Positions 24 through 48,000 of a DNA stretch of 64,000 nt are shown one piece after another. Each line of letters opens with the position of its first letter. The first letter of the stretch is position 1. This stretch comes from Prorocentrum cordatum (Eukaryota), in assembly GCA_963575745.1 (NCBI GenBank), contig CAUYUJ010000314.1, positions 310,001-374,000 on the forward strand, in the 5' to 3' direction. The notes beneath the pieces are model-generated. The model worked only from the letters and a program-made list of their open reading frames with translations, was not told where the DNA came from and did no database searches. The position numbers and the translations under genes were made by a program.

Positions 24-989
24 GTGGTCGAGGGGCCTCCCGACGGAGGGCCCTTGCAGATGAGTCATCGTGCGGCGTTCCCCGACGGTCCGACGGTCTC
101 CCCCGTGGCCGGTGGCCCATGGCCCGTGACCCGTCGTCGTCGTCACCGTCCGTCGGCGTCGCTGCCTCAGCCTCAGCCGTCTGCAGTGCGAAGGTCCAGT
201 GTTTCGGCTGTACTCCTCCCCAGCCTGAGCAGGCGACCCCCCCCCGCCTCGGACTCAGGCGTCGACGCGGCGTCGACGCTCGCCGCGATGGCCGCGATGG
301 CAGCATCGGGGCCGTCGACGACTCATCACATCCAGCTCCAGCTTCGTGTGACCATCAATGGAGATGATGGAGTCGTGGTGGGCGGTGTGACCATCAACAA
401 TGGAGATGGAGTCGTGGTGGGCGGCGGCGGCGACGACCAGCGCGCCCCGGGGGCCGCCGCCGTGTTCCAGCATGCGTTTCATGTGCCAGCTGCTGGTGGT
501 GGTGGCGCTGCGGCCGCAGGCCCTGTGGGCGCCGCTGCAGCTCCGGGTGGCGCAGGGGCCGCACTCCCACTCCCACCCCCAGCACTTCCTGTCGCTGCCG
601 CTGGGCAGCCTTCTCCTGTCGCTGCGCAGCCTGGGCAGCCTGGGCTGCCTCCACCGGCGCCGGCGGGGCAAGCCTTGGAGGTGCCCGAGGGGTCTGAGGC
701 CAACGAATTCGGCTGGCCAGCCACTGCGCCGTGGATCGCACCGCACTTCCGCCGGATCTTGCCCCTCGCGGCTGGCGCGCTCGGGTACCACAGCAGCCAC
801 GTGATGGCCCGCTATCGCAGCGTTGACATCTGCACCGTATGCGGCGGCTTCTCTGAGCGTGTATGTTCCAGGAAGCTCTGCGCGCCCTGTTCAGGGATCC
901 GCAGTGATCACTATGGCAGGCGCAACCTTCTTCACATGCGCGTCGGCCACCACCCCAAAACTAACCGCGATTTTGCGGGCTGCTACTAA
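24..989 (+). mobile_element. 3' end of a non-LTR retrotransposon-like ORF: low-complexity linker plus C-terminal Cys/His zinc-finger
   Basis: The ORF ends YHSSH...DICTVCGGFSERVCSRKLCAPC...MRVGHHP. The same pattern follows the RNase H domain of the LINE remnant at ~18050-18290 (WICLRCGGWSQGRALKLAQPC). The 5' part is probably outside the window. Confidence 0.5.
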
Positions 990-1594
990 CGTGGTGAGGG
1001 CCCGCCACGCGCCGCGCGCTGGAGTAAATGGAGGGAGGAGGGGTGGGGGGAGATGGGGGCGAGGCGATATGATCAGAGATTTTGACGACCGCGACGACGA
1101 CCGTGACGACGACGACGACGCGACGACGACCCGACCCGACTCGCCCTTAATCCTTAGGCCTCATCTGCATTCTGTGCCCTGCAGGACGCCGCCCCCGCGG
1201 CTGCTTCCCACGGTCCGTCGGCCCGATGCCACGCGCGCGCTCCATGCGAGGCCGCGTGGGCTGCAGCATGCGCGCCGTCTCATCCCCCGCCCCGCAGCGC
1301 GCGCCCCCCCCCCCCCACTGGCACCACTGGACGTTTGCGCAAGTGTCGGGCTTATGCCGATCGGATCAACGCCCCATGGCTCCAGGGCCCCCCAGGGCTC
1401 CCCCCCCCCGACTACATGAATTATCCGACGCTGTCCGCCGCGAGGGCGGGGGGGGAGGGGGGGCGCGCTGTAGCTGTTCTCTGTTCTATCGGCTAGCGCA
1501 GTCAGTCGAAACCTTCGGCCTGGCAGCGAATCTCGAAAGCATAACAGATTTATGGGGTTCTGGATCTACTAGGACTCAAAAAATGAGTGTGTTG

Positions 1595-1710
1595 AAGATT
1601 GGGATCTCCTCTTGACGCCCTGAGGGGCGAGGAATTTCTGGCAATCTCTCTTGAGGCCCTGTGGGGAGATAGAATTTCTGGGATCTCCTCTTGAGGCCCT
1701 TAGGGTAGTT
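1595..1710. repeat. Short tandem repeat (ATCTCCTCTTGAGGCCCT-like core, 3 copies)
   Basis: The core recurs at ~1603, ~1644 and ~1683. It resembles the CCTCTTGAGGCC motif of the repeat at 54.2-54.8 kb. Confidence 0.6.
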
Positions 1711-2067
1711 AGAATTTCTTGGTGCCGTTGGGGTCTTGCAAAATCTCTGGGCCCACCCATCAAGAGCTGGTAGGCCATCTGGGGAGAACTCGACAGGCTC
1801 TTGGCGCCCTCGCTCGCTGAAAATGCATTAATCTTCGCATTGCTTCGAGGGAATGGGCGACTTCCGACATCCGTGAGTTCGTCTAGAATTGGTTGCGGCT
1901 ATTTTCGCTCTGCTTCCTATCCGCCCTCTGGACGTTCCATCGGCTACAACGGCCCCTGTTCTTCCATCATTGCCCAATTCCATTCCCACCGCGGCTCCAG
2001 CCCGACCTGCAACAGGCGCGCGAGGTGGAACGGCCAGCCCGCAGCTGAACCAGCCCGCCTGAGTGCG

Positions 2068-5000
2068 ATGAGCGGCTTCGCGGCGCAGCCGTTCAAGGAC
2101 TTCTGGGCCGACAGGGTTTTCCCCCTCATCGAGACTGACTTCAAGCGGCTTCTCAAGACCATTCCGAAGCGCGTCGCCGCGAGGGCCGAGGGGCCGAAGA
2201 GGGAGAAGCCAGACAAGTCGCAGGAGGACCAGTCGAAGAAGATCTCGAAGAAGGACAGCAAGGAGAGAACTCCATTGCAGGAGAAGCTCGCCAGGATCAT
2301 CGAAGAGTGTAACGAGAAGGGCGAGCGCAGGAATGCCTATCTGAACCTGGCGTATACGGCGCCCATCGACAACAGTTTCCTGGAGGAGAATATCTCGGTG
2401 GGCAAGGTGGAGAACGTGGCTGCGGACATGTTCATGGCGAACGTGCCGACGGACGACGCGGCTGCAACAGCGAACGACTCTCTTGAGGGCGCTGGCGACG
2501 TCGAGTGCACAGCCCAGGGTATACCGCAGCGGCGCATCGTGGAGACGCTAAGCCAGGTCAAGGGTGGCAGGCCTTGGAAGATCCCGAAGCAGGTTGAGAA
2601 AGGGTTCGAGATCCCCATCATGATCACCAACGTGAACCAGACCGCTGTGCCCGAGATCGGCAAATTCAAGCGTTTGGGCAGTGACTTCGTGGTCAACGCT
2701 GTCTGGCTGGCCTACTACTGGGCGAAAGAGGAAGGCAACAGGCAGGCCGCACAAGCGGTGGAGGACTTGATTCTGGATTGGCCCCTCGATTTCGCGCTGA
2801 TCCCGGGGCGCGCGGCTGAGGAGATCGAGGAGAACAAGTCCAAGAGGTCTGTCAACCAGAGAGCCCGCCACGAGCGCCTGCGCGCCTGGCTCGGTGTCGA
2901 GAACCAGAACCTCATGCGCATCGTGGCACGTGCGGCGGAAATCTCGGAGAGCGGCGGGCCAGGTGGCGGGAACCCCTCGGCAGAGAAGGTGCAGGCGTGG
3001 TTGGAGAAAAACATACAGGGGGGGAGTTATGAACTGCCCCAGCCTGAGGACCGTCAGGACGCACATGATCAACTGGTTCGCTCTCGAAAAGTGCCCAGGG
3101 GCACTGCTGCTTTTGGATGCCGCCGTGAACCGTTGGGGGCGAGACAATCTGCTGGGCAAGCCCACGCAGCTTGGGTTGACATCGCGAAGACGGGCGCTAC
3201 CTCGCTGGGGCACGTCTTGGAAAGCCTGTTCACGCGGATGTGGCGGAAGAGCGTGAAGGACCCGTACAGCGCCTCCACCATCGGCCAGGTAGTGGCCGAT
3301 ATCTTGTGGGCGAAGAAGTACGTGGCGAACTTTCTGAGACAGCGCCCAGACTTGTTCAAAGGCAGCACTGGCTGCAACAGCACTGAAGCACCAGACACAC
3401 AGGAGAACGTCGCCGAGAGAAAAGTCATGGTCATGGCTAGGCAATACCTCGACTCGCCGCTCAAGTTCTTCGAGAAGACTGAGGGGCCTGACAAGGGCCC
3501 GACCTGGGTGCAGTCGCTGCCGACCGACGCGCTGCGCCTGGCGATGAGACACTTCCTCGAAATCGGCCAGGAATTCTACAAGCAGGAGATCTCTGGCGCC
3601 CTCACCCAGTCGTACGCCGAGCGCTACAACATGGACAAGTTCCACAGGAGCGTGCGAGAGAACAAGAGGTTCTTCGAGAGGTTCCAGATCGCGTACGACT
3701 CCCTCGCGGGAAACCCCCAGGAACCGTCAGAGGAACAGCCTGCAGACAGCGACACGGTCGGTGCTGCAACAGCGGGCGGCGCTGGAACAGCGGAGGCGGC
3801 CTCCGGGGACAAGAAGAAGATCGACGTCTCCCCGAGCGACGTGAATAACTTCAAGGCGCTGTGCGAGCAGCAGTGCTCTACCGTTCTGGATACGCGGGTC
3901 GTCATGATCACGGCGGAGGGCAGCGCCATGGATATCAACGCTTCGGTTACTAAGACACGCCTATACCAGAACCTCACAGAGAATGCATCAGTGATGGGCT
4001 TCTACGATGTCAAGAATGCGAAGTTGTGCTGCGTCTTCGAGGGGCAAGGCCTCACGCGCCGTGAGCCCGCGCTGGACGAGCAGGATTTCACACGCTACCT
4101 GAAGTCCCTGGAACTGCTGATGGTCGGTGGGTGGGACGTGCTGTGGGTGCTGACGGGCCGCGCGCAGTCGAACCTCCCGAAGATCCAGAATATCCTCGTC
4201 GCAAACAAGTTCCGCGCGGTCACATGCCACCTCGCCTACAACACGAAGCAGATGCAGCAGTACGGCCACTTCCAGAGGCAGCGGGGCCTGGCGAACTCGC
4301 GCCCGCACGAGGTCATGTTGCTCTGCTACAAGGGGAGGAAGCCGAAGCAAATGGCCAAGTTCAGGCAGTTCGTGGGCGCGGGCAGCCCCCTCTTCAACGA
4401 AGTGATGAGGAACGTGCCTGTCCTGCCGCAGAAGAGCCACGCCCTCGTGCCCAAGCAGGTTCGGGAGACCAGCTTGGCCAGCATGGTCGGCCAGTGCGTC
4501 ACCGAGGTGGAGGCCGAGGAGCGAGAGAAGCTGGGGTACTGCCACCCTCTCCAGGGGGACGACGAGGGCGCTGATTGTGGCGCCGGGGCGCTCGACGAAG
4601 CTGCAACAGCCGTCCGCCCCGAGAAGGCCCTCGTGACTGCGGCCGTGAAGAAGCGGAGACTCTACCGCCAGCTCACGGGAACGGAGGTGCCGTGGTTCCC
4701 GCACGACAACGACATCGAGCTCCTCAAGGAGCTCTGCCACGAGGCGGGGAAGCCCAGGTGGGTGTACTTCGGCGCGCCTGCGGGCGGCGCAGGCATGCAC
4801 GGCTGCATCGAGAGCGGGTGCAGTGTGTTGGCCTTGACTTTCGACGACCACCACGCGAAGGTGCTCAGGCCGTTTCTCGTGGAGCGTGCTGTCGAGGCCA
4901 TGCTCGGGAGCAGCACCATGGTGTTCCTGAACGAGGACCTGCTTGCACGCTCTGTGCAGTTGCGCCTGACAAAGGAGGACCCGAAGGAGGACCCGAAGGA

Positions 5001-5211
5001 TGGGAAGAAGGAGGACGACAACAAGAAGGAGGGCAAGAAGGAAGACAATACTAAGGACACTAAGGATAATAAGAATAAGGATAATAATGATGACAAGAAG
5101 AAGAACGGTAAGAAGGGTAAGAAGCGCGACGCCGACGCGTCATCGACCTCAGACTCCTGGTCCTCAGACGACCCCTCGGCCTCGAAGAAGAAGAAGTCGA
5201 AGACTTGCTGA
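2068..5211 (+). CDS. Large unknown protein (~1050 aa) with a C-terminal degenerate beta-class N6A/N4C DNA-methyltransferase-like fold and a K/D/E-rich tail
   Basis: Long open frame with strong G/C third-position bias and a likely ATG at 2068. WFPHDNDIELLKELCHEAGKPRWVYFGAPAGGAGMHGCIESGCSVLALTFDDHHAKVL parallels the beta-MTase pattern HP.KP..L...L.....VLDPF.GSG.T.......R..IG.E....Y. HEVMLLCYKG resembles the E.+++F.K strand. There is no DPPY. A pair of compensating frameshifts at ~3020-3170 is likely. Confidence 0.6.
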   Translation: MSGFAAQPFKDFWADRVFPLIETDFKRLLKTIPKRVAARAEGPKREKPDKSQEDQSKKISKKDSKERTPLQEKLARIIEECNEKGERRNAYLNLAYTAPIDNSFLEENISVGKVENVAADMFMANVPTDDAAATANDSLEGAGDVECTAQGIPQRRIVETLSQVKGGRPWKIPKQVEKGFEIPIMITNVNQTAVPEIGKFKRLGSDFVVNAVWLAYYWAKEEGNRQAAQAVEDLILDWPLDFALIPGRAAEEIEENKSKRSVNQRARHERLRAWLGVENQNLMRIVARAAEISESGGPGGGNPSAEKVQAWLEKNIQGGSYELPQPEDRQDAHDQLVRSRKVPRGTAAFGCRREPLGARQSAGQAHAAWVDIAKTGATSLGHVLESLFTRMWRKSVKDPYSASTIGQVVADILWAKKYVANFLRQRPDLFKGSTGCNSTEAPDTQENVAERKVMVMARQYLDSPLKFFEKTEGPDKGPTWVQSLPTDALRLAMRHFLEIGQEFYKQEISGALTQSYAERYNMDKFHRSVRENKRFFERFQIAYDSLAGNPQEPSEEQPADSDTVGAATAGGAGTAEAASGDKKKIDVSPSDVNNFKALCEQQCSTVLDTRVVMITAEGSAMDINASVTKTRLYQNLTENASVMGFYDVKNAKLCCVFEGQGLTRREPALDEQDFTRYLKSLELLMVGGWDVLWVLTGRAQSNLPKIQNILVANKFRAVTCHLAYNTKQMQQYGHFQRQRGLANSRPHEVMLLCYKGRKPKQMAKFRQFVGAGSPLFNEVMRNVPVLPQKSHALVPKQVRETSLASMVGQCVTEVEAEEREKLGYCHPLQGDDEGADCGAGALDEAATAVRPEKALVTAAVKKRRLYRQLTGTEVPWFPHDNDIELLKELCHEAGKPRWVYFGAPAGGAGMHGCIESGCSVLALTFDDHHAKVLRPFLVERAVEAMLGSSTMVFLNEDLLARSVQLRLTKEDPKEDPKDGKKEDDNKKEGKKEDNTKDTKDNKNKDNNDDKKKNGKKGKKRDADASSTSDSWSSDDPSASKKKKSKTC

Positions 5212-5792
5212 AACAGAGCACAGTTTTGAGCACAGGCTGCAACAGAATTCGACAGCCCCGACGCAGGAGCCAGCCCGCACGCTCCTGTTCCTGTGCGTGG
5301 AGCTGCCACTTGTTTGATTTTGGATTGCAACAGTCGCGCGCTGGCGGCGTCGCCTCCGTTCTCGTAATGGGACGCGCGCCACATTCTGCCTTGTGCAGTA
5401 CACGGCGCCTTGCGTACATATAGGAACATAGTCCTCCGTCATCCCTTCGTCGCCATCCGTCGCACTTGGCCCACGGCGCAGGCAAGGCGCAGAGTCAGGA
5501 TGCTTACCTTTCCAAAGGGTACCCTCGTTGCATCCTACGCTTTCCGTTCCGAAGCTGGGGGGCTGGATAAACAACAGATACCATGCCGCCAAGGCCCTTG
5601 CATCCCTACGGCGCTCTGTAGGGGCGGGCCAGGATGGGGATGCAGCAGGGTAGGGAAGACACGGGAAGCAACGCTCCGAGGAGCGGCCGCAGGGGGAGGA
5701 GGAGGACGGAGGAGGGGCCCGCAGGCGTCTCGGTTCACTGAAACTTAGCGGGCCCGCAGGGACGACACTGCCGTCAGCGGGCCTCCGCGGCG

Positions 5793-7036
5793 ATGGCTGC
5801 CTCGGGCGGCAGCGGTCGCGACAGGAACAAGGTTCTCTTCCATAAGTGGGGCTGTTACCTGCAGGGTGACGGGTCGAACAACGACAAGATCAACAAGAAG
5901 CTGAGGGATACCTGCAGCAATAGCATGGCCAGGGTGGCAAAAAAGGGGGTCCGACCGCAAAAGTGACGCTGGGGAAGGTATCGGAGAACAAATGTGTGTT
6001 GACGTGGCCAAAGCCAGTTTCGTATGACACCTGCTCGCGGCTCCTCAAGATTGCGCTGGGCGCCAACGGGAAAGACTATGTGAGCAAGCCTGCAGGGGTG
6101 CCAGGGTGCGCGAAATGTGCTGGAACAGCTGACGCTGCAGAAGATGAGCCAGCTGTCGCCGAGTGCCACGGTGTCGCAGGAGAAACCCTAGAGAACGCGC
6201 TGGGGAAGGTGCTCGTTCCCGCCGCGGACGGGGCAGCGGAGCCTACGCCACCGACAGCTGCTCGTCGCGGGTCTGCTGGTCCGAGAGCGGTGTCCCACGA
6301 CGAGGGTCGTGTGAATCTACTTGCACTGAAGCTCGACGCGGTCGGGCACGCGTACGAAAACAAACAGAAGGGCAAGTGCGAGGACCTGCCGCTCGAGTAC
6401 GACGTGCAGTGGGAAGGAGGGGAGCTCGGTCAGGGCTCTTTCGGCAAGGTCTACTTGGGCACGCGACAGGGCGACAAGACTGGCCTTGCGATCAAGATGC
6501 TGCGGGACGACCCCAGCGATGCGCAGAAGGGGTGCAATGCGGATGCCGTCGGAGGGGCTCTGGATGAGGTCATGCGCCACGGTGCTGTGGGCACGCACCC
6601 GCGTCTCGTTCGCTTACTCGACGTGGGCCTTTTCAGGAGGTTGTGCCCAGGAACTGCAACAGTCCCGAAGAAAGCACACCGAGAACTGCAACAGTCAGTA
6701 CCAAGGATAGATTGGAAATGGACGGAGCACATCGGCCTCGTGCACGAGTTGTTCGAGATCGATGTCCGCCAATTCCTCAAGAAGTCCTCCTTCACGCAGA
6801 CAGGGATGCGCCACGTCCTGAACAGCGTTCTCGAAGGGCTCCAGTACATGCACGACAGGGGCCTCATTCACTGCGACATCAAGCCCGCAAACATCCTGAT
6901 GCGAGGATCGCCGCAGACGCGCGGCTGCTTCGAGAAGCAGGCACTTGTATCACGTGAGCTTGGCGAATGGGATCCCGTCGCGCCGTGCCCAAAGAGCAAG
7001 CTGCAGTTCGACTGGCAGATCCCGAGTTCCTTCGAG
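5793..7036 (+). CDS. Ser/Thr protein kinase, exon 1 (subdomains I-VIb); probable frameshift near 5945
   Basis: Motifs LGQGSFGKVY, AIKM, HPRLVRLLDV and HCDIKPANIL. An ATG at 5793 opens a short frame that shifts at the A6G5 run (~5939-5949) into the 5963 frame. Confidence 0.85.
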
Positions 7037-7040
7037 GCGC

Positions 7041-7335
7041 TCGTCGTCGACGTCGTCGTCGCCGTCGTCGTCGCCGTCGTCGTCGTCGTCCTCCTCCTCC
7101 TCGTCCTCCTCGTCCTCGTCGTCCTCGTCGTCCTCGCCGTCCTCGTCGTCCTCGTCGTCCTCGTCGTCGTCCTCCTCGTCCTCGTCGTCGTCGTCCTCGT
7201 CGTCATCCTCGTCATCCTCGTCGTCCTCGTCGTCGTCCTCCTCGTCCTCGTCGTCGTCGTCCTCGTCGTCCTCGTCATCATCGTCATCCTCGTCATCCTC
7301 GTCGTCGTCGTCGTCATCCTCGTCATCATCGTCGT
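7041..7335. repeat. (GTC/CTC/ATC)n trinucleotide microsatellite within the intron
   Basis: Directly visible. Confidence 0.95.
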
Positions 7336-7370
7336 TCCTTCGACTAAGATCCCGAGTGTCAGGGCTCACA

Positions 7371-7750
7371 TGGAGCTCTAACATAGTATGTTAGAGCTCC
7401 CAGGAGTATGTTAGAGCTCCAAGGGAGCTCTAACATGCCATGTTAGATTTGAGCTCCAGGGAGCTCTAACATGGCACATGCCATGTTAGAGCTCCCAGGG
7501 AGCTCTAACATGCTATGTTAGAGCTCCCATGGAGCTCTAACATGCCATGTTAGAGCTCCAAGGAGCTCCCTGGGAGCTCTAACATGGTATCACGTGCCAT
7601 GTTCGAGCTCCCAGGGAGCTCTAACATGGCATGTTAGAGCTCCCTGGGAGCTCTAACATAGCATGTTCGAGCTCCCTGGGAGCTCTAACATGGTATCACG
7701 TGCCATGTAAGAGCTCCGTGAGAGCTCTAACATACTATGTTAGAGCTCCC
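7371..7750. repeat. Array of palindromic units GAGCTCTAACAT-N-ATGTTAGAGCTC within the intron
   Basis: Alternating 12-bp arms that are exact reverse complements, e.g. 7373-7399. Confidence 0.9.
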
Positions 7751-7777
7751 CTCTCCTCCATTCGCCCCTCTCCGCAG

Positions 7778-8400
7778 GTGGTGCTCGCCGACCTCGGCTG
7801 TGTGCAGATGGCGGATCCCCACGGCAGGTTGAAGAGGAAACTGCGCTACAGCCCGACCTGCGATGACCTCAGAGTATGCACGCCCGCTTACAGAGCGGTA
7901 GGCGTTTTCTTGGGGAACCAGCGCTACTCAGAGGACCTGGACATGTGGTCCATCGGGTGCCTGATGGCCGAGTTGTATACGCGCAAGGTGTCGTTCCAAC
8001 CGCCAGAGCCTTGCGGCGCGCTCGGGCATCATCCAGGGGGGCACCCGAAAGACTTCGTGGTTTTCTGCAGGGAGGTTTTGGGGATCCCAGGCAAGGAGCC
8101 AGGGTCGGGAGACTTCTACAATTACGAGGGCCAGGAACCCGCCCCGTGGCTGGACAACCTGCCTTTCTTTGAGAAGTGGTTCAAGCGGTCGGGCGGGGAT
8201 TGGCTAAAGGCTGAAACAGCGAAGGCACTCGACGGCCGAGGGCGCTGGCCCGTTGACGAACTTGCAGACTGCCCCCCAGACTTGTTGAAGGCCGCCGGGA
8301 GCTGCCTGCTTTGGCGCCCTGGCGCCAGAGCGACAATCAGTAGTCTAAGGGCTCGTCGCTTCCTGCAGCCGGCTGGCGCCCAGCTCGTCGCGCGCATCTC
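7778..8400 (+). CDS. Ser/Thr protein kinase, exon 2 (subdomains VII-XI)
   Basis: Motifs VVLADLG, CTPAYRA, YSEDLDMWSIGCLMAEL and CLLWRPGARAT, giving a CMGC-like appearance. Confidence 0.85.
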
Positions 8401-9376
8401 ATGGCGCAGGGGAAAAACGGCACGGGCGCGATAGCGGAGGCCGGGCTGGACCCAGGCTTGCTCCGCTTCTTGCAGAGAGACCCGTGCTGGCAGATCTTGG
8501 CCGAGGAGCGCCTGGACACGGGGGCAACCGTCTCCAAATGCGTCCGAGGCGACGAGGCGGCAAAGGGCTTGAAAACAGAGGTCGCAGGCGTCGTGGACGA
8601 CGAAAGCCCCCCGAAGTGCCGCAGCCTCAACAAGGGCGGGAATTTGCAGATCACCCCCTCGCCCCACATGGCCGCCTTCGTGCGAGCGCTGCGGAAGAAG
8701 ATGCGCCCGTGGCTGCAACAGCTGGGAGACAAAATGCGCGAGGCTGTCAAAGCCGACGGCATGCCACCTGCCATCGTCGAGCAGAACGGAAAGCCCATCA
8801 TGACAGAGCACTTCGCCGACAACGCGTTCGCGTACGCATCGATCCAGCTCATGCAACCAGGCGCACGGGGCGATGGTTGGCACACAGATGGCGGATGCTC
8901 CCTGTTGCACGCGGCCGTGACGGTTTTCGGGGCGCGCTCCGTGCAAGTGAGGATCCCAGGGGTCCTGGGAGCACATGATGGGGCGTCACCCTCGAGCACA
9001 GCCTCCTGCGGAAGGGTCGTCACCCTCGAGCAAAAGCATGGGTCCTTCTACATGGGCACCCTGTCCTCCCTCGAGCACAACGTGCATCACCACGCCTCAG
9101 GACTGTTTCGCCGCCCACCACGAGCTGCAACAGCGCGTAGACGACAGCAGGCTGCAGATCGCCGTCGTGGTCCGCTCCGACGTCTTTCGGGAGTTCAGGG
9201 CGCGCAGGATCGACGCCACGCCTGGCCCGAAGGAGTTCTTCAACGTCGTGAACCACGTCGTGGCCGATCACCTGGCGCGGGTCCCCGTGGCGTTGCCCGA
9301 CCTCGCGGAGGTGCTTGACGAAATGCGGTGGCCCGGCCTCACGGAGGTGCTTGACGAAATGGGGCTTTCCGATTAG
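8401..9376 (+). CDS. 2-oxoglutarate/Fe(II) dioxygenase domain, AlkB-like; frameshift near 9100; probably fused to the kinase
   Basis: ASIQLM...GWHTDGG gives the HxD motif. LEQKHGSFYMG...EHNVHH gives the distal His. After a frameshift, QIAVVVR resembles the AlkB terminal strand RxxxxxR. The frame overlaps the end of the kinase frame. Confidence 0.7.
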
Positions 9377-9404
9377 TACTCAGCACGGCCCGCGCAGCCC
9401 GAAA

Positions 9405-11038
9405 TCATCATCTTCATCGCCATCATCGTCGCAATCATCGGCTTCATCGCCATCGTCATCTTCATCATCACCATCATCAGCACCAACATGTTCACGCCGC
9501 CATCATCGTCATGCGGGTCTTGATTTAATCATCATCATCACTACGAGATGATGACGATGACGAGAAGATTATGATGGATATTATGATGATGACGATGGTG
9601 AGGAGATGGTGATGATGATGGCGATGACGCGGACGATGATGAATATCATGACGACGATGATGACGATGCTGTTGGAAATGATGCAAAAACAGGTTGAGTC
9701 GGTTGAGTCCGAAAACTTCGCCTTAAACCAAGCCAGGCAAGGGTATGAGATGAGGAGTATGAGGATGAGAACGATACTGATGATGCTGATGATGACGAGG
9801 ATGAGGATGACGATGAGGATGAGTTGGGGGGTTATGACGATGCTGTTGTTGATGATGACGTTGATGTTGGTGATGAGGATGAGGATGGGGATGATGACGG
9901 CGAGGATGAGGATAAGCACGCGGATTTGGTTGTGTATGTGCATGTGGAGGTGGATGATCACGCTGATGATGATGATGCTGCTGATGATGATGATGCTGAT
10001 GACGATGATGATGATGGTTATGACGATGCTGATGTTGCTTATGATGATGATGCTGCCTCTGATGATGATGACGATGATGGTGATGATGCTGATGATTATG
10101 GTGTTGGTGAATATGACGATGATGATGGTGATGATGCTGATGATGATGGTGGTGGTGAGTATGACGATGACGATGTTGATGATGATGGTGGTGATGATGT
10201 TGATGCTGCTGATGATCGTGTTCGTTATGATCATCATTGGACATAACAGTATTAGGATGAGTAGTAGTTTTCTCACCATTAGAAACTCTTAGTATTATGT
10301 TGATGGTGTGTGCAAGAGTGGGTGGTCGGATGATGTGGATGTGCATGATGAGGAGGAATCATGATGCTGCTGATGATACGGAGGATGAGGATGATGATGA
10401 GGATGAGGAGGAGGATGCGGATGAGGATGAGGATTATTATGATGATGTTGGTACTGGTGTTGATGCTGATGCGCTGATGACCGTGATGATGCTGATGATG
10501 ATGCGGCCTCTGATAATGATGATGATGATGGTGATGATGCTGATAATGATGGTGGTGGTGAATATGACGATGATGATGATGGTGATGATGCTGATGATGA
10601 TGGTGGTGGTGAATATGACGATGATGATGATGGTGATGATGCTGATGATGATGGTGATGGTGAATATGACGATGACGATGTTGATGATGATGGTGGTGAT
10701 GATGTTGATGCTGCTGATGATTGTGTTTATTATGATCATCATTGGACATAACAGTATTAGGATGAGTAGTAGTTTTCTTACCATTAGAAACTCTTAGTAT
10801 TCTGTTGATGGTGTAGGCAAGAGTGGGTGATCGGATGATGTGGATGCGCATGATGAGGATGAAACGTGATGCTGCTGATGATACGGAGGATGAGGATGAG
10901 GATGAGGAGGAGGATGCGGATGATCATGAGGATTATTATGATGATGTTGATACTGATGTTGATGCTGATGCGCTGATGACCGTGATGATGCTGCGAATGA
11001 TGATGATGATGAGGAGGAGGAGGAGGAGGAGAAGGAGC

Positions 11039-11131
<93 letters not shown>

Positions 11132-11410
11132 GTGATTGGATTGATGCTGATGATGATCATGCTGCTGCTGATGATGAAGAAGAAGATAATGATGATGCTG
11201 ATGATGAGGAGGATGAGCATGATAATGATAATGATAATGAGGATGAGGATGAAGATGAGGATGAAGTGAGGATGACGATGGCGATGACGTGGATGAGAAG
11301 GAGCAGGAGGAGGAGGAGGAGGAGGAGGAGGAGGAGGAGGAGGAGGAGGAAAGGGAAAGGGAAAGGAGAAGGGAAAGGGACAGGGAAAGGGAAAGGGAAA
11401 GGGAAAGGGA
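9405..11410. repeat. Degenerate (GAT)n satellite with a ~504-bp higher-order duplication, ending in (GAG)n and (GGGAAA)n
   Basis: The block ATTGGACATAACAGTATTAGGATGAGTAGTAG...AGAAACTCTTAGTATT occurs at ~10236 and ~10741. Confidence 0.9.
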
Positions 11411-11414
11411 AAGG

Positions 11415-12040
11415 GCCTCTTTGGCCGTCTGGGGGCTCTTCTGGACCGTCTTGTGGCCCTCTTGGCCTTGTGGTGGATGCCTGAGGGCCGTGGTGGGGCC
11501 GTCTTGGCGCCATCTTGGGCAGTCCAAGAAAGGCCTTTTGATGCCATCATGGGTCCTACGGGAGGCCCTCTTGAGCCGTCTTGGTGCCGTCTTTGATGCC
11601 TTTTGGGCCTTCATGGGGTCATCTTGGGTGATCTTTGGACCTCGTGGGCGCCTATTGGACCGTCTTCGGCCTATATTGGAGGATTCTTGCGCCGTCTTGA
11701 GCCGACGGAAGCCCAGAAAAGGTGATAACGAGCACATCCTTCAAATCCAGGGAAATCAATGATGTTGGCTTCTCCGGGCCCTGTTGGAGGTCCTCCTGTG
11801 GCCCTTCGAGCCTTCTTGGAGGCATTTGGGGTTGTCTTGAGGCCATATTGGGCCATCTGCCTTGGGGTCATCTTGGGCCGTCTTCGAGGCATCTTGAGCC
11901 ATCTTGGTGTCCTTGGTTGCCTGCATGGGTCGTCTTGGAAGCTCGGGACGCAGATCCATCGTTTTCGCAAGAGTGATCGTGGCCTCGGGAGCGCGGATCC
12001 AGTGTTTTTGTTTTCTACCGGGGATCGTGGCCTCGGGAGG
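11415..12040. repeat. Dispersed CTTGG/GGCC-rich repeat family, copy 1
   Basis: 11690-12040 is colinear with and similar to 14720-15058. Related sequence lies at 54200-54810. Confidence 0.8.
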
Positions 12041-13179
12041 GGGAGGATGCACGCGACGGATGCTGGTAGAGGGGGGGGGAATCCTTCTCTGGAGTGCAGA
12101 AACCCTACTGGGCAGCACCTGGCATTCGAACACGCCTACACCGTGCGGGCGCGGTGGCGGGCCGCTCGCGTCTGCTGTACACTCCGCCTCCAGTCCGAGA
12201 GCTCCGACGCGGTGATCTCTCCACAGCGTCGACCCCCCAGAGGTCCGCGAGGGCCCCCGGGAGGCCGCAGGCGGCTGAAAACCTCGCGCCGTGATTTGCC
12301 CACGACGGGAGGAGGAGGAGGAGGAGGAGGAGGAGGAGGAGGAGGAGGAGGAGGGGAGGAGGAGAGGAGGAGGAGAGGAGGAGGAGGAGGAGGGAGAGAG
12401 GGAGGAGGGAGGAGGAGAGGAGGAGGGAGGAGGGAGGAGGAGAGGGAGGAGGAGGAGAGGAGGAGGAGGGAGGGAGGAGGAGGGAGGAGGAGGCCAGAGC
12501 TCGTGCTTCCCGTCCTGGGCGCTGGGCGCGCGACCGGGGGCCCACGCGGGCGCTCCCGCGTGGGACCTCCCGCCCGCCCCGCGGGGCCCCGTGCCGCGCC
12601 GCAGGACAGCCGCGAGTTTGACGCCAAGGGCAGCAATTTGGCAGCGCCCCGCCCTCGGGGGCGGCCAGGAGGGGGGTGCTGAGCAGGGAGGTGGGTGTCG
12701 TGGCGGGGCCATGATACAGTCGAGGCTGATTAGCGGGTCGGCCCTACCAAAGCAAGAGAGAGACTTCTGTCCTGTGTTTTTCGCGGCCCGTGCCCTCTGC
12801 ATCCCGTGGCGCTGTGGCCCTCGAAAGGGCCTTGTGCACCCTCGCGTGGCCTCTCCAGTCAACCGTGACTGTACGGTCGGGCCGAGGTTTAAGGTCGAGG
12901 TCGGGTCGGCGAGGGTACCCCGATGTTCTTCGTGTTTGCTGGATGCTCTTGGCTCGGGGCACCCTGGGGGAGGGTACCTTCGAGTGATCTCGTGGCGTGG
13001 GGTGCTTTGGCTGGCAGAGGGTCTCGTGCTCCTGCTCGCCTGCCGCAGGCCCGACCGCAGTGCGGTCCCTGCCCCCTCCCCCCCGGGCCGCGCACGTGTC
13101 TCGTGCCATGGCCTGCGACCCCCCGTCTGTGGCCGGCCCCCTCCCGGGCGCCCCCGCTCCCCGTGCCCTCCTCTGGATC

Positions 13180-14239: not shown

Positions 14240-15083
14240 CCTCTTTCGTCTTGGCATTCGAGGAGTCCTAATGGAACTTGTGTGGGCCGTCTTCCACTGT
14301 CTTGCCCTCCCGTGAGGCTGCATTGGGGGTCCCTCGGGGCCCTCCTGTGCCGTCCAGGAGTCCTCTTTGCGCCATCTCGGTGCTCTCGTTGGCCGTCGTG
14401 GCGTTCTCTTGGCCGTCCGGTGGGTGGCTGGGTGGTGCCCCCGCGGGGCCCGTCTTGGGCTGCCGAACGGCCTTTTGTAAGACAGTCTTCGGTCCCCACG
14501 GGAGGCCCGTTTGGACAGACTTGGGGTCGTCTTGAATGGGCCGTCTTGGGCCGTCTTGGGCGATAGTTTCGTAGATCGCAGGCACTGCGATCTGCGAATG
14601 AAGGTCTCGTCGGTTCCCAGGCACTGCGCAGGCCTGGCACTATCCCAGGCTCTGCGAAACTATCGCGGCACTATCGTGGTACTTCCTGGGCCGTCTTGGG
14701 GCCATCGCAGAGGCCTCTTGGGCCGCCTTGTGTTGACGGAAGCCCGAAAAGGCGAGGGTGCGAAACTCATCCAAAACCCAAGGGACAGCATTGATGTTGG
14801 TTTCTCCGGGCTTTGCTGGAGGTCCTCCTGTGGCCCATCTAAGCCTTCATGGAGGCATCCTTGGCTTTCAAGAGGCCATATTGGGCTGCCTTGGGGCCAT
14901 CTTGGGCCGCCTTCGAGGCATCTTGAGCCATCTTGGTATCCTTGGTTGCCTGCATGGGCTGTCTTGGAAGCTCGGGACACAGATCCATCGTTTTGTAAAA
15001 GGGTTCGTGGCCTCGGGAGCGCGGATCCATTGTTTTCTACTAGGGATCGTGGCTTCGCGAGAGAGAGAGAGAGAGAGAGAGAG
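14240..15083. repeat. Dispersed CTTGG/GGCC-rich repeat family, copy 2, ending in (GA)n
   Basis: Homologous to 11415-12040. Confidence 0.75.
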
Positions 15084-45050: not shown

Positions 45051-48000
45051 ATGTCGGAAGCGCGCTACGGAGACGGGTGGCCCGACCCAAACACCTTTGT
45101 CACCCCTGGGAATTTGTGGAGCAGGTGCACTGGATCTTCCTGGGACTCAAGTCACCGTGTGTATATTGAGCGAAGGCCCTGGCCAGGCTGGAGGCCCGTT
45201 CAACCCTTGGTATCCCAAGACGGTGTACGCTCACTCCCTGGTCTCGTGATCCCAGAAGACGCTTGCACGTGCCCACCACCTACCCTCTCTGGGACGACGA
45301 GCCAACGTACAACTGCCCTGGAGGTACCAGGTCCGACCCAGAGCAAATGAGGTCGCACCTGATGGACACACGTGAGGCTACACGGACGGGCCTCAGACAG
45401 TCCGACCTCGGTGGCGTGGCCAGAGCGCTAGCAAAATCGACCATCGGACCACCGCCTGCTGCGCCTGGGCAACCTACAGACGCCTCGGATGGACCTTTAC
45501 CTCCGCCCCCGCCGCCCCACCCTCCGCCCGCCTGGGACCAGCCCAACCAGCAGCGAAGGGTGATGCCGTCCAAGGAAGTAGATGCATCACCAGCAAGCCC
45601 GTCGGAGCAGCAGCTGGATGATTCGTTGGCACTGCAGGCGGCCGCCGACGTAGCCAGTCTCTACTCTGTGCCCCTGGACTCTCCGCCTTCCAGGGTCCAC
45701 CCCAAGGCGGCGCTAGGGGACCTGCCCGAGGCCGTTCGACTCCCCTCACAGTGGCCTTACTCTCTTCAGGATCGTGGGCAGACACTTCGGAGGATCGCCT
45801 GGGTGGAAAGCCAGGCCTCGGTCGAGACGGTGGACAACAGAAAAGACTCCACACGCGAAGACCTGGCCAGGAAAGGTAGCTGCGCGCTCGGCGTCCGCGT
45901 CACTAGGATCGACGCTAACTCGGACCTGGGCGACCTCGACACCTTCCGGCTACGCAACGCGCTGGACCTTCCAGAGGGCAAGGAACTCTACCTGCTGGAG
46001 TGGCCCTCTAAGTACAAAGTGGCATCCAGGACCCACGAGGGAGACAAGGAGGGCAAAGAACTGTACATTTCTGTCACGGGCCCCACAGTCGACAAGATTG
46101 CTGACGTCACGGTCTGGTGGCCCCCCTCCCTGGGCGGTGCCATCCACCCAAGAGACGCCCAAGTGCTCGGCCTCAGCCCGTCCACCAGGTACCCCTCCGA
46201 CAGGTGCGTAGTGCTGTACAACAGTGGAAAGTGGGGACCTTTCCACGAAGACGAGACCAAGGCGAAGCGCCCCCCAAACGAAGACGCCCCCTGGTATCGA
46301 GTAGACGAGGCCCCCTCCGACATCCAGTTCTGGCGCCAGTGTTGGGCTCTCGCCCAGATCTACCACCTCCGACAGAACGCCGCGGATCTGTTCGCCCGCC
46401 AGCTGTCTCCCCTGACGTTCCTCTTAGCCTTCTTGCACGCCCCACGTGCCGACCGACTCGCGGCCGACGACCTGAGGGGCACCAGCGCAGTGGGCTTGAA
46501 CCTGAGGGCCAGGGCTGCCGTCACCCTGGGCTGCGACGTTCCCGACGCCGACCACACTCAGGCTGTCCGATGCGGCCTCCTACAACAGGCACCCCCGCTT
46601 CCCCTGGGTTTGAAGGCTTTCTCCGATGACGAGATCTCGGACGCGACAGGTTCTGTCCTCCAGAGGGTGCGCCCCGCTCCCAGCCTGGATACCTTCCGCG
46701 ACAGGGTGGACAAACACAAGCCAAACAGCGACGCGATCAGGGCCCTTCAGGCCACCTTACCTCACCACGCCGTACTGGTGCACGGGCCCCCTGGGACAGG
46801 CAAGACCACCTTTTCTGTAGCTTGTCTGGACATGTGGGGATGCTGCCTGCGCCCGGGGCAAGCAGTTGCGTTGGCAGCCGGCTCGAACGCAGCGGTAGAC
46901 CAACCAGCCCTGGCGATGGCCGAAGCACATCGGCAGTGTCGTCTCGAAGTTCGTGCGCCTGGCAAGGAAGGAGCGCGTCAACGAGGCACTCGTCGACCTG
47001 ACACCTGGGGGCCATTACAAGAATGCCCGCGGGGAGTTCCCGTTCCAGGACGGGGGCAAGAGCCAGGACTTCAAGCCCTACAAGGCGAGCCTGCTACGAG
47101 ACGCCAGGGTAATCATGTCCACGCACGAGGCGGCCGAGGCCCTCGGACAGGAAGACAGCCCCCACATCGTCCTCCTGGTAATCGACGAGGCTGGGCAGGC
47201 CACGGAGCTTCACGCGCTCATGTCTATGGTAAACCTGGTCAACAGCGGCGGAGCCCTGGTCCTGGTGGGCGATCCGAATCAGTTGCCCCCCTACGGTTCT
47301 CTCCAAGCTTGCGAACGACCTGGGGCTCTGTGTTAGCATATTTGACAGGATGTTTCACGCGCTCCGCGGCCAAGACTCGGCTGTGGTCCACCTGTCGATC
47401 TGCTACCGCATGCGTCCGCAGCTACTCGCCTTTCCGAACGCAGCCTACTACGGCAAGGACATGACGTCTGGCATCATGAACCCGCTCAGGGACAGGCCCA
47501 TCGTTGAAGGCATCCCATGGAGAGACATCACACCCTGGGAACCCGGGCGACTGGCTGAGCTGGCCACTCTCACCGGTTCCGACGAGGACGACTTTCGCAC
47601 GACCCTCAAGCAGTTGGACCCTCCGCAAAACGGAGACAAGCACCGTTTCTTGCTGGTCGGCACACCCTCCTGGGAAGTAACGTTTAACCTCCAACCTGGC
47701 TGCGCCAACCTCCCCGAGGCAGCACAGGCCGTGGACATCGTGCGGGCACTCCTGCCCGAGCTCGAAAAAGGCACCACCGTCAGAATCGTTGTCGGCTACC
47801 AGCTCCAGACGGCCATCCTCGTGGATGGCTGGCCGCAGGGTCCCCGCCATCTGCGGTGTCCTGCGGAATTCCAAGGGTGGCAAGAAGGGGAGGTCAGGCA
47901 AAGGGAAAGGCAGCGTTGCTCGCGACGGACAAGACACCCCCGGCCCCGGACCCGACCCTCAAGAGCACACGGTGGACGTTCACCGGTGGGAAACCGTCCT

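What the first reader, a model, noticed from the sequence alone, without database searches (positions are those of the whole stretch)
1801..9376. Candidate mobile nucleic-acid-modification cassette: MTase-fold protein plus kinase-2OG/Fe(II) dioxygenase
Seen: two co-oriented, nearly intron-free genes only ~580 bp apart in otherwise repeat-filled DNA. One ends in a pattern resembling the beta-class amino-MTase SAM-binding C-terminus. The other has full protein-kinase motifs running into HxD...H...R dioxygenase motifs. Established: AlkB and TET/JBP 2OG-Fe(II) enzymes oxidise methylated bases, some transposons carry TET/JBP genes, and dinoflagellate DNA contains 5-hydroxymethyluracil. Inference: this is cargo of a large DNA element or endogenous virus encoding a write/erase or read/modify module regulated by a kinase. 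No transposase or capsid gene is visible here.
Basis: partly seen in the sequence, partly recalled or inferred. Interest (0 to 1): 0.8.

Follow-up and report, generated by a model that had tools for sequence, protein, structure and literature searches.

The report
Linked methylase-like and kinase-dioxygenase genes
Two neighbouring genes of an unidentified GC-rich marine eukaryote, a large protein ending in a probable adenine-methyltransferase-like domain and a protein kinase fused to an iron/2-oxoglutarate dioxygenase, stay side by side in distant relatives, but the copy in this window is broken by frameshifts.

Summary

The gene1-then-gene2 order recurs in 3 of 7 informative metagenome contigs from divergent relatives.

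The window copy has five frame-breaking indels compared with near-identical copies in public runs, so it looks like a pseudogene copy.

I found no transposase, capsid gene, terminal repeats or viral relatives, so the mobile-element reading is unsupported. The TET/5hmU link is not favoured.

My best guess is a kinase-coupled adenine-methyl write/erase module. That function is inferred, not shown.

The parts
2068..5211 (+). Gene 1: 1047-aa protein of an unnamed family; no intron
   Evidence: ORF and translation. 28 homologues at 36-58% identity, collinear over the full length, none with a Pfam family.
3019..3200 (+). Out-of-frame stretch of gene 1 between two compensating indels (about 3020 and 3179)
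   Evidence: The stretch deviates from all 28 homologues, and the +1 frame reads the family sequence. Other copies lack 1 nt at 3020 and have an extra T after 3179.
3886..4905 (+). Beta-class amino-methyltransferase-like domain. 'MGFYDVKNA' (3991-4017) sits at the motif IV place. The G-rich loop 'FGAPAGGAG' and 'VLALTFDD' lie at 4756-4860.
4963..5208 (+). Lys/Asp/Ser-rich tail ending in KKKK (nuclear-localisation-like)
   Evidence: Translation. A tail of the same make-up is present in the 11 of 29 aligned sequences (window copy included) that reach the C-terminus. The nuclear-targeting role is inferred.
5212..5792 (.). 581-nt spacer between the two genes
   Evidence: Sequence. It is covered by near-identical contigs in all four runs laid.
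5793..7036 (+). Gene 2 exon 1: conserved N-terminal region and the kinase N-lobe through HCDIKPAN. Two extra bases at 5939-5940 break the frame.
   Evidence: Pkinase E 7.1e-19. The N-terminal motif is shared with relatives. Two bases are left out at 5939 in contigs of all 4 runs (in X3 and X4 alongside the window's state). Kinase motifs.
7037..7777 (+). Intron (GC..AG), made of a (GTC/GAC)n microsatellite and palindromic 32-nt units
   Evidence: Junction inferred from homologues. Repeats. Summed contig depth over 7455-7711 is about 8-fold (X2) to over 300-fold (X3) that of the neighbouring bins.
7778..8400 (+). Gene 2 exon 2, kinase C-lobe (DLG; 'YRAVG' where relatives have 'YRPPD')
   Evidence: Pkinase E 1.4e-7. 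The closest solved kinases are CMGC: PHO85, CDK2, GSK3, FUS3, E about 1e-15. Alignment.
8401..9376 (+). 2OG-Fe(II) dioxygenase domain, read in two frames (8401-9098, then 9101-9373, stop 9374-9376). Compared with other copies it lacks 1 nt after 8400 and 11 nt after 9098. It also carries a loop insert of about 17-20 aa (about 8956-9010) and a 36-nt tandem duplication near 9306-9361.
   Evidence: 225 relatives. The model of homologue P0038 has pLDDT 94.6. AlkB-family and other 2OG dioxygenases fill the fold searches. Loose ends at 8400 and 9098, and a contig with 11 extra letters. Alignment.

Best explanation
The region holds one frameshift-damaged copy of a conserved two-gene unit of an unidentified GC-rich marine eukaryote. 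Gene 1 encodes a protein of about 1040 aa. Its C-terminal 300-340 residues most likely adopt the circularly permuted (beta-class) amino-methyltransferase fold. They keep a cofactor-type glycine loop followed by an acidic residue, but carry an invariant D-V-K-N where these enzymes have (D/N/S)PP(Y/F/W). A basic tail suggests a nuclear location. Gene 2 encodes a CMGC-type protein kinase fused in one chain to an Fe(II)/2-oxoglutarate dioxygenase with an AlkB-like jelly-roll core. My committed mechanism is this: the gene 1 protein places, or recognises, an N6-methyl mark on adenine in DNA or RNA; the dioxygenase of gene 2 oxidatively removes it; and the tethered kinase gates that removal or phosphorylates the same chromatin or transcription target. 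The two genes are kept together because they act in one pathway.

Shown: the ORFs and domains; the dioxygenase fold; the conserved kinase-dioxygenase fusion; the recurrence of the gene order in divergent relatives; and the indels of the window copy. Inferred: the methyltransferase fold (weak scores), any catalytic activity, the substrate, the cooperation of the two proteins, and the nuclear location. The window copy itself is probably non-functional.
For: Gene 2:
- Pkinase matches, with intact G-loop, AIK, HxDxKPxN and DLG motifs.
- The downstream domain has 225 relatives at E<=1e-3. 30 of the 37 longer ones scanned carry Pkinase in front of it.
- AF2 model of homologue P0038 (44% identical): pLDDT 94.6, pTM 0.92.
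- Foldseek gave 376 hits at E<=1e-3, led by AlkB, ALKBH3 and ALKBH5.
- All 50 rows of the Foldseek-free search are 2OG dioxygenases.
- H-x-D, a second H and neighbouring Q, R, G, S, T, P, Y positions are at least 90% conserved.

Gene 1:
- All 43 rows that one search lists (ranks 1-49) are beta-class amino-MTases (MTA1/MTA9, M1.HpyAVI, METTL3-14, METTL4, TTHA0409, CcrM).
- All 50 VIA rows are the same class.
- The first named protein-language-model neighbour is PF01555, score 0.88.
- The strand ending in D followed by VKNA is invariant.

Linkage: gene 2's N-terminus or kinase lies 0.6-0.9 kb downstream of a gene 1 homologue, on the same strand, in L002, L005 and L018. That is 3 of the 7 contigs with at least 1 kb downstream, out of 24 fetched.

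Pseudogene state: contigs of four runs differ from the window by -1 at 3020, +1 after 3179, -2 at 5939, +1 after 8400 and +11 after 9098. Each difference restores the family reading frame.
Against: - Profile tests found no methyltransferase: Pfam at E<=10 on 13 members, PDB profiles, and hhalign against E. coli YhdJ and a 17-sequence PF01555 alignment, probability under 1%.
- The canonical catalytic motif is absent, so gene 1 may be inactive or do something else.
- The dioxygenase is structurally tied between AlkB-type enzymes and protein prolyl hydroxylases (12.2 against 11.3). A nucleic-acid substrate is therefore not shown.
- The gene order was not seen in 4 of the 7 informative contigs (L007, L011, L014, L022).
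- No expression data exist for the locus.
Confidence: 0.45

Rival explanations
1. Protein-modification reading. The dioxygenase is a prolyl- or other protein hydroxylase. Fused to the kinase, it puts two marks on one protein target. Gene 1 is a non-catalytic or unrelated nuclear protein, and the gene order is kept by shared transcription, not shared chemistry.
For: Prolyl hydroxylases score within 1 Z unit of the best AlkB-type chains (Trichoplax PHD 11.3, PHD2 10.8, against ALKBH3 12.2). Both domains of gene 2 would then be protein-modifying. Gene 1 lacks the (D/N/S)PP(Y/F/W) motif and has no profile-level link to methyltransferases.
Against: AlkB-family chains lead all three rankings and cover 179-182 of about 200 residues at rmsd about 3.0-3.2 A. 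The neighbour's only fold matches are adenine/cytosine amino-methyltransferases, which fits a nucleic-acid pathway.
Confidence: 0.25
2. One reading: the pair is cargo of a transposon, large DNA element or endogenous virus, and spreads as a selfish modification cassette.
For: At three indel sites two states co-occur within a run (3020 in X1, X3, X4; 3179 in X3; 5939 in X3, X4). So at least two versions of the unit, spacer included, exist in those samples. The window copy is damaged like a decaying repeat. Gene 1 has no intron. The pair travels together in divergent lineages. Retroelements that carry adenine methyltransferases are reported in a 2026 preprint (passages seen).
Against: No transposase, reverse transcriptase, integrase, capsid or packaging family was found in 112 ORFs scanned in this window (16, 86 of 138, 10); an SF1 helicase 36 kb away is the only convincing domain match. 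There is no second copy of either gene in the window and no terminal direct or inverted repeats around the pair. Neither family has a relative in the viral contigs or in PHROGs, beyond generic kinase hits. The two states per run could be alleles or strains.
Confidence: 0.15
3. The frame breaks are assembly errors, and the window locus is an intact, working copy.
For: Apart from the indels the copy is little degraded. It deviates at 15 of 160 highly conserved columns (family median 5%) in one alignment and at 3 of 66 (median 3%) in another. Two of the breaks lie in or next to homopolymer runs (5939, 8400).
Against: The window's own state is seen next to the repaired state in contigs of public runs at 3020 (X1, X3, X4), 3179 (X3) and 5939 (X3, X4). 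One break is an 11-nt deletion between short direct repeats, which is not a typical base-calling slip. The kinase also reads YRAVG where relatives have YRPPD. Caveat: one of these runs may be the assembly's own source.
Confidence: 0.2

Closest known systems
Beta-class amino-methyltransferases: MT-A70 family (ciliate MTA1/MTA9 = AMT1 complex, METTL3-METTL14, METTL4) and N6_N4_Mtase PF01555 (CcrM, M1.HpyAVI, M.MboIIA, M.RsrI, M.PvuII)
   Same: They are the only fold class at the top of three structure searches. The order of elements is the same: catalytic-motif strand first, and glycine-rich cofactor loop plus acidic residue last. The element labels are recalled.
AlkB-family 2OG-Fe(II) dioxygenases (E. 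coli AlkB, ALKBH2, ALKBH3, ALKBH5, FTO)
   Different: No Pfam or profile match. The arginine motif reads R-S-D-x-F-R, not the AlkB R-x-N-x-T-x-R (the latter is recalled). The domain is fused behind a CMGC kinase. No description of that architecture turned up in three full-text searches or in passages of the Iyer-Aravind review, which has 0 occurrences of 'kinase'.
HIF/ribosomal prolyl hydroxylases (PHD2, Trichoplax PHD, OGFOD1/Ofd2)
   Different: They rank below ALKBH2/3 in every list. No substrate information is available here.
TET/JBP thymidine/5mC dioxygenases, including dinoflagellate AmpTJ1 and CryTJ1 (PNAS 2024, PMC11572971; passages read)
   Same: Same superfamily and the same HxD...H...R cofactor motifs.
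Mobile elements carrying DNA methyltransferases (DAM-LTR and EpiLTR retrotransposons, bioRxiv 10.64898/2026.05.21.726589; SymbioLINE-DNMT and SymbioDIRS-DNMT3 as named there; passages read)
   Same: A modification enzyme that may exist in several versions in a repeat-rich protist genome.
   Different: Here there is no reverse transcriptase, integrase or LTR. The methyltransferase-like domain is not Dam-like by profile. A kinase-dioxygenase gene is the partner.
Prokaryotic methylation-linked defence systems with a Ser/Thr kinase (BREX PglW, MADS MAD6)
   Same: A kinase and a methyltransferase encoded side by side. Homologue P0046 gives weak kinase-domain hits to these models, E 1.5e-6 and 9.4e-3, far below the cut-offs.
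   Different: The hits are generic kinase similarity. The other genes of those systems are absent, and the context is eukaryotic with an intron.

Membership tests
Beta-class amino-methyltransferases (MT-A70 / N6_N4_Mtase) | Permuted Rossmann fold with the catalytic-motif strand before the cofactor-binding loop | tested here: inconclusive
Beta-class amino-methyltransferases (MT-A70 / N6_N4_Mtase) | Catalytic motif IV (D/N/S)-P-P-(Y/F/W) | tested here: not met
   The family-invariant sequence at that place is Y-D-V-K-N-A. The canonical motif is recalled.
Beta-class amino-methyltransferases (MT-A70 / N6_N4_Mtase) | Glycine-rich SAM loop followed by an acidic residue at the end of the next strand | tested here: met
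   G341, P343, A344, G345, G346, A347, G348 and D365 are invariant in 13 sequences. Actual SAM binding was not tested.
Beta-class amino-methyltransferases (MT-A70 / N6_N4_Mtase) | Significant match to the family profile | tested here: not met
   Pfam shows no MTase family at E<=10 in 13 members. hhalign against the PF01555 alignment A5 gives probability 0.1-0.3%.
2OG-Fe(II) dioxygenase superfamily | Double-stranded beta-helix core | tested here: met
2OG-Fe(II) dioxygenase superfamily | HxD...H iron triad and a basic residue for 2-oxoglutarate | tested here: met
   H183, D185, H231 and H235 are at least 90% conserved in 70 sequences. R in 'VMxRSD' is the majority residue. The window reads WHTDGG, EHNVHHH and VVVRSD. 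Geometry in the model was not inspected.
AlkB family | Closest fold, including the nucleotide-recognition part, standing clear of other 2OG enzymes | tested here: inconclusive
TET/JBP family | Closest fold or profile match to the TET/JBP oxygenase domain | tested here: inconclusive
Eukaryotic protein kinases, CMGC group | Pkinase profile and catalytic motifs, with closest solved relatives among CDK/MAPK/GSK3 | tested here: met
   Pkinase E 7.1e-19. PHO85, CDK2, GSK3 and FUS3 at E 2e-15 to 4e-13 for the C-lobe profile. Motifs. The window copy has YRAVG at the APE place.
Transposon or endogenous virus | Mobility or virion genes and terminal repeats bounding the unit | tested here: not met
   None in 112 ORFs scanned; 52 low-complexity ORFs were not scanned. 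No flanking repeats. No viral relatives. The window covers only 1.8 kb upstream of the reported start of the finding.

The most novel reading that the evidence does not exclude
The pair is a lineage-specific, heritable base-modification toggle. It combines a divergent methyltransferase with a new D-V-K-N active site and a kinase-gated AlkB-like eraser. The two are inherited as one two-gene cassette that multiplies and decays in the genome: a selfish or domesticated 'epigenetic module' of a kind not described for eukaryotes.
Probability: 0.15. Interest if true: 0.85.

Novelty: new variant of a known kind. Interest (0 to 1): 0.6.

Why it matters
If the reading holds, abundant marine protists carry two sizeable protein families that domain libraries do not recognise. 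One is a kinase covalently joined to an AlkB-like dioxygenase (at least 225 clusters at 50% identity). The other is a methyltransferase-like protein with an unusual invariant motif. Their genes are kept side by side. That would make a direct link between phosphorylation signalling and oxidative removal of a methyl mark testable. It would also give a candidate writer/eraser pair for adenine methylation in a lineage where none is characterised. If instead the dioxygenase acts on proteins, the fusion is a new two-mark protein modifier. The window copy itself is probably dead, so the interest lies in the families and their linkage.

Tried and rejected
- No whole genome is held for the window, so copies could not be mapped.
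- The recalled dinoflagellate spliced-leader pattern gave 0 matches at up to 3 mismatches.
- Pfam, PHROGs and NCBIfam gave nothing for gene 1 or the dioxygenase domain beyond low-complexity or kinase hits.
- PDB sequence profiles for gene 1 returned only tail hits. The A3 profile was swamped by kinases.
- hhalign of the gene 1 alignments against YhdJ alone and against 17 YhdJ-like PF01555 proteins gave probability under 1%. The comparator alignment was narrow, at 65% identity or more.
- The protein atlas search for the gene 1 N-terminal region gave only chance-level hits at 0.78.
- Viral contig scans found no relative of either gene.
- No RNA holder was listed among the sequencing runs, so nothing can be said about expression.
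- Depth was not used as a copy number.
- The notes of earlier scans held nothing.
- Cluster look-up gave no names or taxa beyond 'hypothetical protein'.
- A GT..AG intron at 6947-7777 was my first model. I dropped it in favour of GC..AG 7037-7777.
- Literature: four full-text searches and passages of three papers gave no description of this fusion or pair. Supplements were not opened.
Full report
**What is there**

The first 10 kb of the window is 59-65% G+C. On the + strand an uninterrupted ORF runs from ATG 2068 to the stop at 5209-5211, giving 1047 aa (P0001). A second gene begins 581 nt downstream, at ATG 5793, and ends at the stop 9374-9376. Pfam finds a protein kinase in two ORFs: E 7.1e-19 in 5924-7381, and E 1.4e-7 in 7625-8434, just under the gathering score. 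Pfam finds nothing in gene 1 or in the last 1 kb of gene 2.

**Gene 1**

- A search of the large protein collection gave 28 relatives at 36-58% identity. Eight of them are full length (1024-1086 aa) and collinear with the window's ORF. None carries a Pfam family, and all come from ENA or JGI assemblies without names.
- A later search with the C-terminal 410 aa added 115 shorter relatives, again with no Pfam family.
- In the alignment, residues about 318-378 of the window protein differ from every relative. The +1 frame over 3019-3200 reads the family sequence. The ORF is therefore open only because two indels compensate each other.
- An AlphaFold model of residues 562-971, built from 13 sequences, was poor: mean pLDDT 45.4, with only about residues 110-200 above 56.
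- Even so, all 43 rows that Foldseek lists (ranks 1-49) are beta-class amino-methyltransferases: ciliate MTA1/MTA9, M1.HpyAVI, METTL3-14, METTL4, TTHA0409 and CcrM. E ranges from 1.5e-3 to 2e-2, and no hit is at or below 1e-3.
- The first named neighbour by protein-language-model features was a PF01555 cluster, score 0.88, which counts as a lead only.
- In the model, the strand V-M-G-F-Y-D is followed by V-K-N-A. These residues are invariant in the family. So are the later G-x-P-A-G-G-A-G loop and the aspartate that ends the next strand. That is the order of motifs in beta-class enzymes (recalled), but D-V-K-N stands where they have (D/N/S)PP(Y/F/W).
- Against this, every sequence-profile test failed: Pfam at E<=10, PDB profiles, and hhalign against E. 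coli YhdJ and a 17-sequence PF01555 alignment.
- I put the methyltransferase-like fold at about 0.65 and catalytic activity well below that.
- The N-terminal 560 residues are conserved but unexplained.

**Gene 2**

- The kinase has the G-loop, AIK, HCDIKPAN and DLG motifs. Its C-lobe profile is closest to the CMGC kinases PHO85, CDK2, GSK3 and FUS3.
- The exon junction that fits the family is GC..AG at 7037/7777. It gives '...IPSSFE|VVLADLG', as in P0033 '...LPVTFEVVLGDLG'.
- The intron is a microsatellite plus palindromic 32-nt units.
- A full scan of 1.84 billion representative proteins with the 232-aa stretch 8401-9096 gave 225 relatives at E<=1e-3 and 107 at E<=1e-10.
- Of the 37 longer relatives scanned, 30 have Pkinase in front of the matched domain (two of these below the Pfam cut-off). 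None has a dioxygenase family. The fusion is therefore old and conserved, and the domain is not recognised by Pfam.
- I modelled P0038, a domain-only homologue 44% identical to the window, because the window copy is broken. With 70 sequences the model reached pLDDT 94.6 and pTM 0.92.
- Foldseek gave 376 hits at E<=1e-3, led by AlkB, ALKBH3 and ALKBH5.
- In the Foldseek-free search all 50 rows are 2OG-Fe(II) dioxygenases: ALKBH3 12.2, ALKBH2 12.0, a Trichoplax prolyl hydroxylase 11.3 and NgTET1 9.8.
- H-x-D and the later histidines are at least 90% conserved, and the arginine in 'VMxRSD' is the majority residue.
- The dioxygenase call is secure. The choice between a nucleic-acid substrate and a protein substrate is not. 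TET/JBP is not the nearest family.

**State of the window copy**

Contigs of four public runs, all apparently DNA, cover every bin of 1801-9500, including the spacer and the intron, at 90-99% identity. Compared with the window they show five differences:

| Place | Difference in the other copies |
|---|---|
| 3020 | one base fewer |
| 3179 | an extra T after it |
| 5939 | two bases fewer |
| 8400 | an extra C after it (from loose ends) |
| 9098 | 11 extra bases after it (loose ends, plus a contig with 11 extra letters) |

Each difference restores the family reading. The last three join the ATG-5793 frame, the kinase and both halves of the dioxygenase into one ORF.

At 3020, 3179 and 5939 the window's own state is also present in some runs. 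So at least two versions coexist, and these breaks are probably real and not assembly slips, unless a run is the assembly's own source. The window copy also reads YRAVG where relatives have YRPPD. It carries a loop insert of about 17-20 aa that distant homologues lack and a 36-nt duplication at its 3' end. Otherwise it is little degraded. I read it as a recently disabled copy.

**Linkage**

A scan of metagenome contigs with the gene 1 alignment returned 24 loci. Seven have at least 1 kb beyond the end of the gene 1 homologue. Three of those seven show the same arrangement:

- **L005:** the gene 1 homologue (193-3147, 33-53% identity in three aligned segments) is followed on the same strand by the gene 2 N-terminus and kinase at 4010-5315, with introns.
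- **L002:** 55% identity; the gene 2 N-terminus lies at 3762-3929 (46% identity, E 5e-11).
- **L018:** an ORF at 1179-1583 matches the N-termini of L005 (E 3e-13) and P0033 (E 3e-6).

L007, L011, L014 and L022 show nothing comparable.

**Mobility**

I found no second copy of either gene in the window and no terminal repeats around the pair. Among 112 ORFs scanned (16, 86 of 138 with 52 low-complexity ones dropped, and 10), the only convincing domain match is an SF1 helicase at 45-50 kb. Neither family has a relative in the viral contig collection. Coexisting versions and a damaged copy are compatible with a repeated element, but equally with paralogues, alleles or strains.

**Literature**

- Dinoflagellate TET/JBP thymidine hydroxylases are known (PMC11572971; passages read).
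- A review of eukaryotic adenine methylation lists many methyltransferase and AlkB architectures, but the word 'kinase' does not occur in it (PMC4738411; passages read).
- A 2026 preprint describes retrotransposons with Dam-type methyltransferases (passages read).
- Searches gave no description of a kinase-AlkB-like fusion or of this gene pair. Supplements were not read.

**Verdict**

My best reading (0.45) is a conserved two-gene modification module: a methyltransferase-like writer or reader, plus a kinase-coupled AlkB-like eraser. The window holds a disabled copy of it.

Noticed in passing
window 7372-7749: A palindromic unit of about 32 nt (GGAGCTCTAACATG and its complement) occurs 19 times, only inside the gene 2 intron. 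In the four runs, summed contig depth over 7455-7711 is about 8-fold (X2) to over 300-fold (X3) that of the neighbouring bins. So it is a very abundant repeat in those samples, possibly an intron-borne mobile or satellite unit.
   Followed up: partly
window 45170-50441 (+): An SF1 helicase (AAA_11 E 5.7e-8; AAA_12 E 5.8e-18) is spread over three overlapping frames, which points to introns or frame breaks. Among the ORFs scanned it is the only convincing Pfam domain match beyond the two genes studied.
   Followed up: no
window 9400-11400 and 12300-12500: Long GAT/GAC/GAG-type microsatellite tracts give long, meaningless Asp/Glu/His-rich ORFs on both strands. Summed depth at 9254-9500 is also very high.
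   Followed up: no
window 11749-11965 and 14781-14994: Two direct repeats 3.03 kb apart at 86-94% identity, downstream of the pair, suggest a local tandem duplication. They do not flank the two genes.
   Followed up: no
L022 368-2007: This contig has a degraded-looking gene 1 C-terminus ('RRLYFRTPAGGAGIH'). An ORF with RanBP2-type zinc-finger-like repeats follows it in place of the kinase gene.
   Followed up: no
window 7037/7777 and L005 4282-4626: The favoured intron has GC..AG ends with a G after the acceptor, and the L005 homologue of gene 2 also has introns. From recall, such splice sites are common in dinoflagellates, but the lineage of the window was not established. The spliced-leader search was empty, and the relatives carry no taxon names.
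   Followed up: partly
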